Shown here: positions 1 to 6,000 of the stretch, piece after piece | How the letters are laid out: each line of letters starts with the position of its first letter | Numbering within the stretch: position 1 is the first letter of the stretch | Source: a virus | Taxonomy: Duplodnaviria; Heunggongvirae; Uroviricota; Caudoviricetes | DNA: 18,440 bases | Direction: 5' to 3' (one strand) | Virus record (IMG/VR): IMGVR_UViG_2534682158_000018 | Made by a program: the position numbers

Positions 1-3000
1 TTAACGGATCAACATCCAGATCAGCAGACACGCCACCACCGGCACAGCAAAATCCATCAGGCTTGCCACATCCCAAGCACGCGGATCAAAACCGCCCCAC
101 CACGGCATATTCATTCGCTTGCCATGCCCGAACATTTCGATCCAGCGATATTCTGCCTGGGTGTGTTCACGCGCAATGAAGAACGTACAACCGGCTATCG
201 CCCCGTAAATCCAGTTTCCGGTAAAAAGACCAATCAGTACCTGCGCAGCCACAGCACAAAGCGCATGAAGAAAAGGTGTTATATCCATTACTCCTCCTTT
301 ATCCGATATCGCTTTGGGAAGTTGATAACAACTTCAATTCTGACTCAAGTTCATCAACTCTTTCAGTCAGTTTCTGGATATGGTGAATCAGTGGAACAAC
401 CAGACGTTCGTACATTACACCTTCGGCAACAAGGCCATTGCTGGAAATAGCTTCAGGAGCATCATCTTCGTTAGCTGGTCGCCAGTGTACAAACTGAGGG
501 GCCATTTCTCCTACTTCCTCGGCAATCAATCCGTAGAATCCCCAGTCACGCCTGTCATTTTCGCATTGCGACCTGTACCACACAGGGCGCATCCTGAAAA
601 TGAGATCGGCGTGCTCTGAATCTATTGTCTCTACTGAATGTTTATAGCGGATAGACGATGTTGACCGCAGCACAGACGAAATTGCGGGGTCAGGATTAAG
701 ATAAAGGTTTGCCGCCGCTGTAGTCGTGCCCAACCCCCACAAATAAAACGCTTCACGGCCAGTCAGCGGGTAAAAATCTCCACCATAACGACCGCTTTCC
801 AGAGCGTTCACTTCCAGTTTGTTTTTCAGCTTATTATCAACTTCAGTTTTTGTGTATCTGGAGCTGATATCCTGCTTTGCACTGGTCATATCAGTCTGAA
901 GCGTTGATACTTTTCCGTTAATTGAGGAAATATCTTCCTTGGCTTTACTGACATCTCCCTTTAGCGTTTTGATGTCATCAGGAATTACTGTCGATGTAGC
1001 CATTTGTCTCCCTCACATCCAGCCACGAAGTTGATGCTCAACAACAATCGCGTATTTATCGAATATTGACGATTTTTTTGCATCATTAATGATGCGCACG
1101 CTTACAAAATATCCGTCCTCCTTAACACATACCGGCTCGCCATTTTCAGTCAGCTCTCCGGTTTCTTTGTACACGTTACCTATCACGTCAATAAGAATAT
1201 CATCCTGCATCGACTCGTCATCATAATAGCCAATACTCTCCATAAAGGCCGAAAAGTCGGCCCTGTCGGCAAATTTGAGTGTTAAATCTTTCATTAGATT
1301 GACTCCCCCACCTGAGCATCAGTCAATGCCTTGTGCCATATTCTGAAATTCCTGACATGACCAAATAAATGACGTAACCCGGCTGTAGTCTGGCCTCCAA
1401 TACGGATAATTGCGGTGTTCTGAATACAGGACCATGTGGTTTTTGTTTCGCTGGATATATGCCCGTTACTTACTGAGCACGTAGACTGCTCTGACTTTAC
1501 ACGCATCCCCATAACCATTTTTTCAAGCGATGCGTTTTCGTTTACCCGTCTGTTAGCTCCTCCAATATCGCAATAAGGAAATCCGTCGTAATCTGTTGAA
1601 CGACCGAAGCCAAGAATAATAGCCGCTCCGGTTTGATGACCGCCGGTATCAAAAACACGTGGCGCTGCATTTGGCGTTTTATACCAGTTCTTATGTACCT
1701 CACAAAGAACCGTAAAAGGAAGATTATAAAGATTATTCTTAATTGGAACTGTAACTATATCGCTTGCGCGGGTCGCCGCCGTCGCTCCTGATATAATAAA
1801 AGATGATACACAAGGCCCATCTTCTACTTGTGGGGTGGCCAGATAAATATAGTCACCAGATACGGTTGCCCCGCTCTGCTTAGGAGAATACTGTATCTGA
1901 GAGCCTATTTTTAACTCCCCATCAATTGCCTGAATTGTTGCCTCTGCAAAAATCCATCCGGTAGCTTCGTCCTTTCTGACTCTCGCTGTAATTCTTGAGG
2001 CAGCACCGCCTGTCATATTAATTTCAAGCGTTTGTGTATCAATATACGCATCACCAAGAAAAGTTGTTGCGCTACCGTCATATTTATCAAACCGGATACG
2101 CAACCTTACCTGCAGTTCTGTTTTAAAACGACATGAGGTTGTCACGTGTTTATTATCGCCTGAGACATCAACTGACTTTGTTGCAGCAATTGATGCCATA
2201 TTAATGGCTGAGGTTTGCCCAATCAGAGAATCGTTGCAGACAAACTTTCCATAGGTAAAACCAAAACTATCCTTCCCGGTTTCGGGAACATCCATATTTG
2301 ACGATCGCCCCCAACTGGCAGGGTTTTCCGAATTGAGCATGTAGTTTGTTCTTTGCCCCTCAATAAGCAGGCCATCACGTTCAAATCGTGGCTCGTCAAT
2401 GGCAGCCTCTGTCAGCACACCAGATTTGTTAATATAGGTTGCTTTCGATGCACGTTTAAACTTAACAATCTTGTCGCCAGGCATCGTTATTTCATCGTCA
2501 CCAATAACAATTTTTTTATATGATGGCGAAAAGCCCGTAATCATATCCAGCGAATCGTTAAATGGTATCCACACATCAGGCAGCGGCTGTAAGACATATT
2601 TATACGGCTCCGCAGCCTGGCTTGCGTACTCTCTGGCTGCATCTTCGCTTGCTTTAGCTGCCGTCTGGCTTGCTGCCGATGCTTTCGCTGAGTTCGCAGC
2701 CGCTGTTTCGCTCACCTTTGCGTTGGTTTCACTGGTTTTTGCTGCTTTTTGACTGTTAGCTGATGCAGTGGCAGAAGCAGCCGCCGCGCTTGCAGAACCG
2801 GCTGCCGCGCTCTCGCTTTGGGCTGCTGCAACCTGGCTGTTTTTTGCCGCAGTTTCACTGGCTTTAGCATTCGTTTCGCTGGTCTTCGCTGCCGTCTGGC
2901 TGGACTTTGCGTTAGTTTCACTCGTCTTCGCAGCTTTCTGGCTGTTAGCCGCAGCAGTTGCTGATCCAGCTGCTGAAGTCGCAGAACCGGCTGCCGCGCT

Positions 3001-6000
3001 CTCGCTTTGGGCTGCTGCAACCTGGCTGTTTTTTGCCGCAGTTTCACTGGCTTTAGCATTCGTTTCGCTGGTCTTCGCTGCCGTCTGGCTGGACTTTGCG
3101 TTGGTTTCGCTCGTCTTTGCGGCTGTCTCGCTATTTTTCGCGTTGGTTTCTGATTTTTTAGCTGCTGTTGCGGAGTTTGCCGATGCAGTCTGCGAGGCCG
3201 CTGCCGCCTGTGCGCTGTTAGCTGCATTCGTTTCTGAGGTTTTCGCCGCGTTCTTCGATGATGCCGCTGCAGTTTCGGATTTCTTTGCCGCCGCTGCGCT
3301 CTGAGAGGCGGCTTCAGCGTTGCGTGCCGCTTCTTCCACCATTTCCTCAAAACGACGCAATGCTTCCGGCATGACATCATCTTCCGTCATGGCACCGAGA
3401 AAATCATTCAGCGTACCTGGTCTGGAACCTTCATAGACGGTAATGGCCCCGGCATGTGAAGGCGGAAAACCTTCAACAAGCAGGATAACGCTGTACTGGC
3501 CATACTCAACATCCATGCTGTAACGCCCGGCTTCATCCGGATTTTCAGAGGCCACCGTGTTCACCAGTACCGTGGTGCTGTTACGCTTTGCCTTCAGTTG
3601 AATAGTGCAGTTCTGTATTGGTTTTCCCGCACCATCTTTCAGCACACCTGAAATCTGTACTGCCATACTCACTCCACAAATAAAAAAGGCGCCATTTCTG
3701 GCGCCCGTATTGGGGTTATAAATATTTCAACGGATACTGATACCGGAAGCAGCTTTTTTGGTCACAATCACCGTACAGTCTGTGATGTTACCTGCGCCCT
3801 GATTGCCTTTCTGGAAAATCTTAAACTCCAGAGTGACGTTACCACCACCACTCGGCATATCAATAACCGCACTGTAACTACCGGGAATGGCTCCTTTAGT
3901 TTCTCTGGATGCGATTAATACGCCATTTTTGCGAACTTCAAAACCATAACCCGTGTATCGCGTACCTCCCGGGTTATTACCGCTCCCCGGATCGTCATAC
4001 GCCACACCGTTAAAAATAATGGGCGGAATAATGATTTGGCGGTCAAAGTTATGATCATCGTAAATGGTGACTGTAACCGTCCCGTTTGGTGTTTCCGTGT
4101 TACCCCACGTACCAGCCTTTTTCGGGAATGATTTGGATACAGTTTTAACGAAGTCACCTCTGACCTGGTTCGCCTCCAGCATGCCCTTAATCATACAGTT
4201 TTCATTTACCGTGACATTATTGAGCGTCCCGGAGTTCGCATTCACGTTACCGCTGATATCAGCATTTCTCGCCGTCAGCCGCCCGTCCGGTGTCAGGGAA
4301 AATACCGGAGGACTGCCACCACTGGTAATGGTGGGGGCCGTCAGGCGCTTCAGGAACACTTCGTTCATGAATATCTGGTTGCCCTGCGCCACAAACATCG
4401 GCGTTTCATTCCCGTTTGCCGGGTCAATAAACGCGATACGGTTAGCGGCAACCAGGAACTGGCTCAGTTTGCCTTCCTCCGTATCCTCCATGCTGAGGCC
4501 AAGCCCCGCGACATAATGTTTGCCGTCTTTGGTCTGCTCAATTTTGACGCCCCACATGGCATTCCATTTATCGTTGGCGTCCTTCCACTCTTTCGAAAAC
4601 TCCTCCAGTCTGCTGGCGTTATCCTCCGTCAGCTCGACTTTTTCCAGCAGCTCCTTGCCGAGATGGGATTCGGTTATCTTGCCTTTGAAAAAATCCAGGT
4701 AACCTTCCGCATCATCGCTCGCCCGACCGACGGCCTCCACGAATGCCGATTTGCCAACGGTGTTCACACTGCGGATATAAAAGTAATAATCATGGCCCGG
4801 TTTGATATTGATACTGGCGGCTATCCAGTACAGCGCCGTACCAAGATAGCGGGCTGTGGTTTCAACCTGCCTGATATCGGTAATCCGCTTTTCCGAGAAC
4901 CAGAACTCAAACTGTACCGTCGGATCATAAATCGCAAGATGCGGCGTGGCGGTTATCTGAAAATAGCCCGGTGTCAGCTCAATCCTCGACGGTGCTGCCG
5001 GTGCGGCAATCCGGAACGATACCGATGCCGGATCGCCCTGCAGTCCCCACGCATTTACCGCCCGGACTGTCAGCGTGTACCGCCCCAGCGCCAGTTGCGT
5101 GAAGCGGTATGTGGTTTCCGTCGTCCGGGCCGTGCTGACCAGCCGCTCACTGCCGTCGTCCGCTGTTACGGTCAGGCGAAGCATAAAGCTCACCCCCTTC
5201 ACCACCTTCGGCGTGTCCCAGCGCGCCAGCACCTGATATTCCCCGCTGTCTGCGGTGACTTCGGCAGTCAGGTGCTGCACCGCTGGCGGCGTGACACCAT
5301 TCACCGTGCCGCTCTGGTCGCCGTCAAAGTGCGCCCCGTTATCCACGATGGCCTCTTTTTCCGGCACATGCTGCACGGCGGTGATGGCATACGTGCCGTC
5401 GTCGTTCTCACGGATACTCACGCAGCGGAACAGTCGCTGGCGCAGCGTCGGCAGCTTCAGCCCCCATACGCTGTATTCAGCAACACCGTCAGGAACACGG
5501 CTCACTTTTACCTTCACGCCGTCGGTGACGGACTGAACCTCCACGCTGACCGGATTGCCACTTCCGTCAACCAGGCTTATCAGCGTGGTACCGGAGGATG
5601 GCAGCGTGATTTCACGGTCGAGCGTCAGCTTCCGGGTCTGGCTGTTCACCGCCAGCACGCGCCCGCCGGTGCTGATACCGGCATAGTCATCATCGCAGAT
5701 TTCAATAACATCACCCGGCACATGGCGAAGCCCTTCAGCACCCACGCTGAAGTCCACGGTCTGCGTTTCCAGCAGTTCTGTTTTAATCAGCCACAGCCCG
5801 GCGCGGTGTGCCTGCCCCCGACTGGTACAGCCAAAGGCATCCATCTTCGTGACGTTACGACCGTAACGGGCAATGGCCTGCGTGTCCTCCACAAGCTCTG
5901 TTGCCGTTTCCCAGCCGTTATCCGGGTCAATCCAGTTCACCTCAACGGCATTATGGCGGTCCTTCAGGGCGCTGAAGCTGTAGCGGAACGGCGCGCCATC

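What the first reader, a model, noticed from the sequence alone, without database searches (positions are those of the whole stretch)
2690..3170. Recent 189-bp in-frame tandem duplication in the fiber shaft
Two adjacent copies starting at 2792 and 2981 are identical for about 121 nt and then diverge, with a more degenerate partial copy upstream. The unit is 63 codons, so the frame is preserved. The underlying sequence is built of SETNAK-like hexapeptide repeats, which makes the region prone to slipped-strand or unequal recombination. Copy number probably varies between related prophages and would change fiber length. It is also an assembly hazard that could collapse in short-read data.
Basis: seen in the sequence. 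Interest (0 to 1): 0.45.

Follow-up and report, generated by a model that had tools for sequence, protein, structure and literature searches.

The report
Old fibre-shaft duplication, recently homogenised
The repeat is real, but it is an old and widespread 63-codon duplication in the coiled-coil shaft of a lambda-type prophage side tail fibre; only a roughly 70-120 base patch copied from one repeat into the other is recent, and the whole feature is ordinary for this gene family.

Summary
Window 2792-2913 and 2981-3102 are identical over 122 nt at an offset of 189 nt. No other offset gives a run longer than 15 nt.

The repeat lies on the minus strand, in a lambda-Stf-like side tail fibre gene (3666..1294, 790 aa). 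It sits in an uninterrupted array of 34 heptads (S-x-x-A/N-A-x-x, aa 116-353), not hexapeptides. This array aligns with the proximal trimeric coiled coil of lambda Stf. One repeat unit is 9 heptads, about 9 nm of shaft.

"Recent duplication" is not supported.
- The two-copy layout occurs in about 968 of 5,426 complete E. coli genomes, in alleles down to 87% identity.
- In 50 other distinct alleles the two copies form separate orthologous classes (median 30/189 differences between copies, 7-8 between orthologues).
- The window's second copy keeps its own diagnostic bases at both edges but carries first-copy bases across unit positions 56-123. That is a gene-conversion tract.
- The tract is seen in only 3 complete genomes.

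Copy number does vary, but rarely: one copy in 4 complete genomes and one phage, three copies in none. One draft contig equals this allele minus exactly one unit, which is either a real deletion or an assembly collapse.

Length variation of this coiled coil in steps of seven residues was published in 2012. Interest is low.

The parts
1294..3666 (-). Side tail fibre gene (lambda stf homologue), 790 aa from the ATG at 3666. The mechanical ORF extends to a GTG at 3672.
   Evidence: ORF list and translation. Pfam phage_tail_N at aa 3-133, E=3.5e-67. phrog_1419 'tail protein' matched end to end, 1-790 against 1-793/793. Annotated as WP_000290531.1 directly after gpJ in E. coli M7424.
3385..3666 (-). 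N-terminal collar domain (aa 1-94) that docks the fibre on the tail tip.
   Evidence: Matches the solved lambda Stf residues 1-94 (PDB 9e7m), E=8.6e-49. The role as a collar comes from PMC12617516.
2608..3321 (-). Uninterrupted array of 34 heptads (aa 116-353; S at position 1 in 32/34, A at position 5 in 31/34, A or N at position 4). This is the proximal coiled-coil shaft.
   Evidence: Heptad layout and residue autocorrelation at multiples of 7. Collinear alignment with lambda Stf, 60% identity over 286 aa in the same register. The AlphaFold2 monomer model is helical over aa 98-356 apart from a four-residue break at aa 232-235, mean pLDDT 81. Lambda residues 102-393 are modelled as a trimeric coiled coil (PMC12617516).
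2923..3111 (-). Copy 1 (c1) of the 189-nt / 63-aa / 9-heptad unit, aa 186-248. Donor of the conversion tract.
   Evidence: Identical or nearly identical (0-1 differences) to c1 of UTI89, Tritos, ev207 and STN0717.
2734..2922 (-). Copy 2 (c2) of the unit, aa 249-311. A mosaic: c2-type bases at unit positions 2, 8 and 131-188, c1-type bases at positions 9-130.
2792..2913 (-). Largest possible extent of the converted tract in c2 (unit positions 9-130). It is identical to 2981-3102 in c1.
2799..2866 (-). Smallest possible extent of the converted tract (unit positions 56-123). It spans the 10 sites where the nearest unconverted alleles (Tritos, ev207) carry c2-specific bases.
   Evidence: 10 of the 21 window-versus-Tritos differences fall here and all equal the window's own c1 (P=2.7e-8).
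2716..2733 (-). Short partial third copy: the start of the next heptad, SETNAKV, resembling the start of the unit.
   Evidence: Offset-189 match string; TRF reports 2.2 copies.
1297..2607 (-). Distal, non-repetitive C-terminal region (aa 354-790). Unlike lambda's distal fibre, and presumed to bind the receptor.
   Evidence: NCBIfam NF048003 'phage head spike fiber domain' at aa 434-634, 52.8 bits against a cutoff of 36. phrog_5939 at aa 367-788. No Pfam hit.

Best explanation
[quoted passage not shown] The unit is a whole number of heptads, so both the reading frame and the coiled-coil register are kept. Each unit adds about 9.3 nm to a shaft of about 35 nm.

The duplication is old. It is the standard layout of this fibre family, and in other alleles the two copies have diverged to about 16%.

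In the lineage of this window, a non-reciprocal exchange between the two copies (intragenic gene conversion, donor c1, recipient c2) overwrote 68-122 nt of c2. That longer perfect homology should in turn make unit loss or gain by unequal recombination, and collapse in short-read assembly, more likely than in ordinary alleles.

Shown here: the repeat; the heptad periodicity; homology to the lambda Stf coiled coil; the age and spread of the two-copy layout; the mosaic pattern of c2; the rarity of the converted allele; the existence of one-copy alleles.

Inferred: the trimeric state and the length per unit (from published lambda and EHEC fibre work); the molecular route of the conversion; any effect on adsorption.
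For: - The repeat is real.
- Gene identity: Pfam PF08400, PDB 9e7m, phrog_1419 matched full length, position right after gpJ.
- Heptads. Alignment and shared register with lambda Stf. Helical model. Published coiled-coil assignment: PMC12617516. Published CD and ultracentrifugation evidence for a trimeric helical 'PCoil' after PfN, with lengths differing by multiples of 7: PMC3368898.
- Age of the duplication: the 873-nt two-copy span occurs in about 968 of 5,426 complete genomes, down to 86.8% identity, and in 49 of 80 IMG/VR loci. In 50 distinct alleles the c1-c2 distance has median 30/189, against 7-8 between orthologues, with flank divergence up to 11%.
- Conversion: the window's c2 carries the c1 base at every diagnostic site from 56 to 123 and the c2 base at positions 2, 8 and at all but one (position 164, polymorphic among c2 copies) of the diagnostic sites from 131 to 188. 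All 50 other alleles have 3-39 differences in positions 9-130; the window has 0. 10 of the 21 differences from phage Tritos cluster in the tract and all equal the window's own c1 (P=2.7e-8).
- Derived state: the converted c2 is present at 100% identity in only 3 of about 1,050 carrier genomes. The longest identical run elsewhere is 18-68 nt.
- Instability or collapse: contig ACBAOU010000070.1 equals this allele minus one unit, with 0 mismatches over 1,709 nt.
Against: - The direction and timing of the exchange are inferred from a sample of alleles, not from a rooted phylogeny.
- Some c2 sites are polymorphic for the c1 base in other alleles: positions 65, 82 and 122 in 34-44% of them. Part of the tract could therefore have arrived by recombination with another allele rather than by a single intragenic event.
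- The very uneven divergence along the unit (about 8% in positions 0-130, about 34% in 131-188) is not explained by a simple 'duplicate then diverge' history.
- The trimeric coiled-coil state was not tested here. The model was a monomer, which folds back on itself at aa 232-235.
- No functional data exist for this fibre.
Confidence: 0.85

Rival explanations
1. A recent tandem duplication: a 189-nt unit was duplicated shortly before this genome was sampled, and the copies have barely diverged.
For: 122 nt of perfect identity at an in-frame offset. The sequence is built of short repeats that could mediate slippage.
Against: The other 67 nt of the unit differ at 21 sites. A fresh duplication would be identical over all 189 nt. 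The same two-copy layout, with the same c1- and c2-specific bases, occurs in about 968 complete genomes and many phages with up to 11-13% divergence. The window's c2 shares the c2-specific edges of all those alleles.
Confidence: 0.03
2. Inter-allelic recombination rather than intragenic conversion: the c1-like middle of c2 was imported from another prophage's stf allele that already carried those bases.
For: This gene family is visibly mosaic. Protein-level c2 variants run from KS..D..E to KN..V..Q. P0019 has only 5 c1-c2 differences in positions 9-130. PKF8's c1 carries a patch of c2-like or IdasGreatGrand-like bases. Genomes carry a median of 2 stf-like loci and up to 14.
Against: No sampled allele has a c2 with all ten c1 bases. 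G at position 77 is fixed in 50/50 other c2 copies, and positions 86, 91 and 113 carry the c2 base in 94-96%. The tract is identical to the window's own c1, which is the nearest available donor. Even under this scenario the ultimate source of the bases is a c1 copy.
Confidence: 0.08
3. An assembly or polishing artefact: short reads mis-mapped between the two copies homogenised c2 during polishing of the long-read assemblies.
For: The converted allele is confined to three assemblies with similar strain names, sizes and coordinates. They may share one pipeline and lineage.
Against: The tract is clean, with sharp edges, and c2-specific bases are kept on both sides. An independent draft assembly (GCA_053088065.1) has a one-copy form whose single unit is c1-type up to position 130 and c2-type from 131. 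That form is expected from the converted allele but would need a switch inside a 7-nt gap in an ordinary allele.
Confidence: 0.04
4. A template/variable repeat pair of a diversity-generating retroelement acting on a tail fibre.
For: A pair of near-identical repeats of about 120 nt in a phage fibre gene resembles a TR/VR pair on the surface.
Against: The copies are adjacent, in frame, and lie in the shaft rather than the receptor-binding end. Differences between c1 and c2 in other alleles are of all base types, not confined to adenines of one copy. No reverse transcriptase is annotated in the neighbourhood, which holds only head, tail and chromosomal genes.
Confidence: 0.005

Closest known systems
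Bacteriophage lambda (Ur-lambda) side tail fibre Stf: N-terminal collar domain plus proximal trimeric coiled coil (PDB 9e7m; PMC12617516)
   Same: The N-terminal 94 residues are about 90% identical by eye in the alignment (E=8.6e-49). The shaft aligns collinearly and in the same heptad register. The gene sits directly after J.
   Different: The window has 34 heptads with a 9-heptad tandem duplication. Lambda has about 37 more degenerate heptads with no such duplication. The distal part is unrelated: no lambda-type hinge or gp37-like distal fibre, but a region with a 'head spike fiber' domain. There is no lom gene between J and stf.
EHEC prophage fibre proteins EPclA-D with the PfN-PCoil architecture (Ghosh et al. 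2012, PMC3368898)
   Same: The PF08400 N-domain is followed by an Ala/Ser-rich, low-complexity, heptad-periodic region. That region was shown by CD and ultracentrifugation to be helical and trimeric, and its length differs between alleles by multiples of seven residues. This is the same phenomenon as here.
   Different: Those proteins continue into collagen triple helices and PfC domains, which the window protein lacks. The paper does not describe this particular 63-residue unit or conversion between copies.
Escherichia phages Tritos (LF82 prophage), ev207, HannyBb, PhiR63_1 and 2G7b: orthologous stf alleles
   Same: Same gene length and two-copy layout, 97.6-99.1% identity.
   Different: In Tritos and ev207, the two alleles examined here, c1 and c2 differ at 31 sites and share only 47 identical nt in a row. 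The window has 21 differences and a 122-nt run.
Escherichia phage IdasGreatGrand stf (one-copy allele)
   Same: Same N-domain, the same heptads either side of the unit (bar two substitutions) and the same shaft-to-distal junction.
   Different: It has 24 heptads and a single unit. That unit is c1-like at its first bases and c2-like from position 56, so it is either the ancestral state or an unequal-crossover product.

Membership tests
Lambda-Stf-like side tail fibre (PfN + coiled-coil shaft) | N-terminal PF08400 / collar domain | tested here: met
   Pfam E=3.5e-67 at aa 3-133. PDB 9e7m lambda Stf residues 1-94, E=8.6e-49.
Lambda-Stf-like side tail fibre (PfN + coiled-coil shaft) | Encoded just downstream of the tail-tip protein J in a lambdoid tail module | tested here: met
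   The 1137-aa ORF at 3727..7140 on the same strand is gpJ, and the rest of the tail module lies upstream of it.
Lambda-Stf-like side tail fibre (PfN + coiled-coil shaft) | Heptad-periodic, alpha-helical shaft after the N-domain | tested here: met
   34 heptads, with S at position 1 in 32/34 and A at position 5 in 31/34. Autocorrelation peaks at multiples of 7. The monomer model is helical over aa 98-356 apart from a break at aa 232-235. Collinear with the lambda coiled coil.
Lambda-Stf-like side tail fibre (PfN + coiled-coil shaft) | Homotrimer; twelve copies form four fibres on the virion | not testable with these tools
   Known for lambda (PMC12617516) and for EPclA (PMC3368898). Only a single chain could be modelled here.
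Lambda-Stf-like side tail fibre (PfN + coiled-coil shaft) | Lambda-type distal fibre and Tfa assembly protein | tested here: not met
   The alignment with lambda orf-401 ends inside the shaft; orf-314, which encodes lambda's distal fibre, was not compared. The distal part hits NF048003 and phrog_5939 instead. The downstream 93-aa ORF belongs to phrog_1361, of unknown function. The protein is therefore a member of the N-domain and shaft family with a different distal module.
Recent tandem duplication | Near-identity across the whole duplicated unit, and absence from close relatives | tested here: not met
   21/189 differences, 19 of them in the last 58 nt. Two copies are present in about 968 complete genomes, with orthologous c1 and c2 classes.
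Intragenic gene conversion between paralogous repeats | A contiguous run of recipient sites switched to the donor state, bounded on both sides by retained recipient-specific sites, with the donor unchanged | tested here: met
   c2 sites 56-123 all carry the c1 base. Sites 2, 8 and all but one of the diagnostic sites from 131 to 188 (position 164, polymorphic among c2 copies) keep the c2 base. c1 is identical or nearly identical (0-1 differences) to c1 of other alleles.
Intragenic gene conversion between paralogous repeats | The converted state is derived and rare among relatives | tested here: met
   3 of about 1,050 carrier genomes. 0 of 58 other two-copy loci. No rooted tree was built.
Hexapeptide-repeat protein | Six-residue period | tested here: not met
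   DNA periods of 21 and 42 nt. Residue autocorrelation peaks at 7, 14, 21 and so on, with none at 6.
Diversity-generating retroelement target | Adenine-specific TR/VR differences and a nearby reverse transcriptase | tested here: not met
   Substitutions are of all base types. No reverse transcriptase is annotated in the region.

The most novel reading that the evidence does not exclude
By creating 122 nt of perfect direct homology, against 18-68 nt in ordinary alleles, the conversion may have turned a stable two-copy shaft into a frequently switching one. Within this prophage lineage the fibre would then flip between 34 and 25 heptads (about 35 versus 26 nm) at appreciable frequency. The one-unit-shorter contig from GCA_053088065.1 would be a real example, and the two lengths would differ in adsorption or host range. 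The strong dominance of the two-copy form in nature would then reflect selection on shaft length.
Probability: 0.08. Interest if true: 0.4.

Novelty: already known. Interest (0 to 1): 0.15.

Why it matters
It matters little beyond annotation. The fibre family, its coiled-coil shaft and the variation of that shaft's length in heptad steps are already described, and the exact protein is in RefSeq.

Three points are useful.
- A long perfect repeat in a repetitive gene can be the mark of gene conversion inside an old duplication, not of a new duplication. Comparison with orthologues separates the two readings.
- The locus can lose exactly one 189-nt unit in draft assemblies or in vivo, so fibre lengths taken from short-read data should be treated with caution.
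- Anyone engineering lambda-type side fibres has a natural 9-heptad module (about 9 nm) that can be added or removed without disturbing the frame or the register.

Tried and rejected
- DGR reading: rejected. Substitutions are not adenine-specific and no reverse transcriptase is nearby.
- Hexapeptide reading: rejected. The period is 7.
- Three-copy alleles: a synthetic query for the hybrid unit expected from unequal crossover found no contiguous match in 5,426 complete genomes. No protein cluster or IMG/VR locus had the expected +63 aa length.
- One-copy census: the 80% coverage threshold proved uninformative, because two-copy alleles reach exactly 80%. I therefore counted only one-piece, 100%-coverage rows (5 records, 4 genomes).
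- P0019 and P0020 looked at protein level like a second converted allele. Their DNA still has 5 differences in the tract and a longest run of only 35 nt, so they are not the same event.
- Truncated 'partial' proteins ending at aa 204-236 are suggestive of contig breaks at the tandem repeat. They cannot be separated from breaks caused by several stf-bearing prophages in one genome, so I do not count them as proof.
- The long ORFs on the plus strand (2768..3304) and in another minus-strand frame (2712..3380) were considered and dismissed as by-products of the GCN-rich periodic sequence.
- I did not model the distal domain or run fold searches. A single long helix gives meaningless fold matches, and the distal domain does not bear on the finding.

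
Full report
**1. The observation**

At an offset of 189 nt the window matches itself exactly for 122 nt, 2792-2913 against 2981-3102. Within 2600-3400 the next-longest exact run at any other offset from 3 to 419 is 15 nt. Tandem Repeats Finder reports 2716-3132, period 189, 2.2 copies, 88% matches, no indels, score 666, with nested periods of 21 and 42 nt. The repeat finder reports the same pair.

**2. What carries the repeat**

The repeat lies in a minus-strand ORF, 1294..3672, with the likely ATG at 3666 giving 790 aa.
- The N-terminus is the Pfam 'prophage tail fibre N-terminal' domain (E=3.5e-67).
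- It matches the solved collar domain of lambda Stf, residues 1-94 (PDB 9e7m, E=8.6e-49).
- The whole protein matches PHROG 1419 'tail protein' end to end.
- In E. coli M7424, which is 100% identical over the stf gene, the gene is annotated directly after gpJ at the end of a lambdoid head-tail module next to zinT.

It is therefore a lambda-type side tail fibre. The distal 437 residues are unlike lambda's and carry an NCBIfam 'phage head spike fiber' domain.

**3. The underlying repeat is a heptad, not a hexapeptide**

Residues 116-353 form 34 consecutive heptads without a single register shift. Ser occupies position 1 in 32/34, Ala position 5 in 31/34, and Ala or Asn position 4. Residue autocorrelation peaks at 7, 14, 21 and so on, with an extra peak at 63.

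Lambda Stf aligns collinearly (60% identity over 286 aa) and shows the same register. The Ur-lambda cryo-EM/cryo-ET study assigns lambda residues 102-393 to a proximal trimeric coiled coil (PMC12617516). Ghosh et al. 2012 showed by CD and ultracentrifugation that the equivalent 'PCoil' region of EHEC prophage fibres is helical and trimeric, and noted that its length differs between proteins by multiples of seven (PMC3368898). A single-chain AlphaFold2 model of aa 95-365 is helical over aa 98-356 apart from a four-residue break at aa 232-235 (mean pLDDT 81). The trimeric state itself was not testable here.

The repeat unit is exactly 9 heptads:
- c1 = aa 186-248 = window 2923-3111
- c2 = aa 249-311 = window 2734-2922

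At about 0.148 nm per residue (textbook coiled-coil rise), one unit is about 9.3 nm of a shaft of about 35 nm.

**4. The duplication is not recent**

An 873-nt query spanning aa 90-380 finds a same-length, single-piece match in about 968 of 5,426 complete E. coli genomes, at identities down to 86.8%. The same layout occurs in phages Tritos, ev207, HannyBb, PhiR63_1 and 2G7b and in 49 of 80 IMG/VR loci.

In 50 distinct two-copy alleles, c1 and c2 differ from each other at a median of 30 of 189 sites. Orthologous copies differ at a median of 7-8, with flank divergence up to 11%. c1 and c2 are therefore old paralogues that predate the spread of these alleles.

**5. What is recent**

Laid out against those alleles, the window's c2 carries the c2-specific base at unit positions 2 and 8 and at all but one of the diagnostic sites from 131 to 188. 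The exception, position 164, is polymorphic among c2 copies (the c1 base occurs in 40% of them). At every diagnostic site from 56 to 123 it carries the c1 base. These sites include positions where the c2 base is present in 94-100% of other alleles (77, 86, 91, 113).

Against phage Tritos the whole gene differs at 21 sites. Ten of them cluster in this tract, and all ten equal the window's own c1 (P=2.7e-8 for such clustering).

This is the signature of a non-reciprocal exchange from c1 into c2, between 68 nt (window 2799-2866) and 122 nt (2792-2913) long. All 50 other alleles keep 3-39 differences in positions 9-130, and their longest identical runs are 18-68 nt. The converted c2 is present at 100% identity in only three complete genomes, M7424, M00057 and M11957, out of about 1,050 that carry this segment.

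**6. Copy-number variation**

Phage IdasGreatGrand has a single unit and 24 heptads by the heuristic count, which gives 33 for the window (the direct count gives 34). Among 105 protein clusters with both anchors, 9 have the one-unit-shorter length. Other classes (18, 19, 22, 24, 25, 29, 31 heptads on the same heuristic count) keep the register.

A synthetic one-copy query finds a contiguous match in only 5 records, representing 4 complete genomes. A synthetic query for the three-copy hybrid unit finds none. So copy number does vary, as predicted, but the two-copy form dominates heavily.

**7. Assembly hazard**

Protein P0040 comes from a 2,540-nt draft contig (GCA_053088065.1). Its DNA equals the window gene with exactly one 189-nt unit removed, with 0 mismatches over 1,709 nt. 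Its single unit is c1-type up to position 130 and c2-type from position 131. This is what either recombination or a de Bruijn-graph shortcut across the 122-nt tract would give. An unconverted allele would need a switch within a 7-nt gap to produce it. It is therefore either a real recent deletion or an assembly collapse of this very allele, and I cannot tell which.

Four truncated protein clusters representing about 1,100 member sequences (444 + 325 + 326 + 8) end inside c1 at aa 204-236. This is consistent with contig breaks at the repeat, but breaks caused by multiple stf-bearing prophages in one genome would look the same (a median of 2 loci per genome).

**8. Rival explanations**

- A fresh duplication is contradicted by sections 4 and 5.
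- Import of the tract from another allele cannot be fully excluded, because the family is mosaic. No sampled allele could serve as donor, whereas the window's own c1 is a perfect one.
- A polishing artefact is unlikely given the clean tract edges and the independent contig in section 7, but only raw reads can exclude it.
- A DGR is excluded by the substitution pattern and the gene neighbourhood.

**9. Comparison with what is known, and verdict**

The N-domain and shaft meet the tested defining features of the lambda Stf / PfN-PCoil fibre family. The distal module is different. The heptad-step length variation of this shaft is published (PMC3368898), and the exact protein is in RefSeq (WP_000290531.1).

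The finding is a correct observation of an ordinary feature. 'Recent duplication' should read 'old duplication plus recent gene conversion', and 'hexapeptide' should read 'heptad'.

Two things remain unexplained. Divergence is uneven along the unit, about 8% in positions 0-130 against about 34% in 131-188. The two-copy form is strongly dominant.

Noticed in passing
window 2768-3304 (+) and 2712-3380 (-, other frame): Long open reading frames of 178 and 222 aa overlap the repeat on the opposite strand and in another frame. They look like by-products of the GCN/AGC-rich periodic codons. The lambda record annotates an equivalent antisense 'orf206b' inside its stf coiled-coil region.
   Followed up: partly
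L096 (GCA_053088065.1 contig ACBAOU010000070.1), gene at 832-2540: This draft contig carries the window's stf allele with exactly one 189-nt unit missing and no other difference over 1,709 nt. It is either a true deletion or a short-read assembly collapse.
   Followed up: partly
window 2734-3111; all two-copy loci (L002, L004-L011, L013-L070): Divergence between the two copies is very uneven in every allele: about 8% over unit positions 0-130 but about 34% over positions 131-188. This suggests repeated homogenisation of the first two-thirds, or import of the last third from elsewhere.
   Followed up: partly
L011 (E. coli PKF8), copy 1: Copy 1 of this allele carries a patch of copy-2-like or IdasGreatGrand-like bases at unit positions 56-102. 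This looks like an exchange in the opposite direction to the one in the window.
   Followed up: no
hits H33-H40 (e.g. NZ_AP021935.1 2638124-2641829): In at least eight complete E. coli genomes a 99%-identical stf allele is interrupted by an IS3-family transposase.
   Followed up: no
window 299-1003 (-) and 1013-1294 (-): Two ORFs lie downstream of stf. The 93-aa ORF belongs to a PHROG of unknown function. The 234-aa ORF matches only the C-terminal ends of very large tail-fibre families (phrog_3299 positions 1147-1384 of 1385). Phage Tritos has a 346-aa protein at that position.
   Followed up: no
window 3667-3726: No lom gene lies between J and stf; the gap is about 55-60 nt. IdasGreatGrand and the P0019 contig do have lom there.
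   Followed up: no
window protein aa 149-351 versus PDB 7lzj, 7vz3, 7vyv, 8hqz_d: SE(T/D)NAK-type heptads also occur near the N-termini of solved Klebsiella phage depolymerases and of phage T5 L-shaped tail fibre protein. The same coiled-coil module therefore seems to be shared by otherwise unrelated phage fibres and spikes.
   Followed up: no
L009 (E. coli strain 222) and hits H74-H110: In many genomes the orthologous gene is annotated as a truncated N-terminal pseudogene plus a separate 'phage head spike fiber domain-containing protein' that starts inside the shaft. This suggests a common frameshift or start-site problem near aa 100.
   Followed up: no
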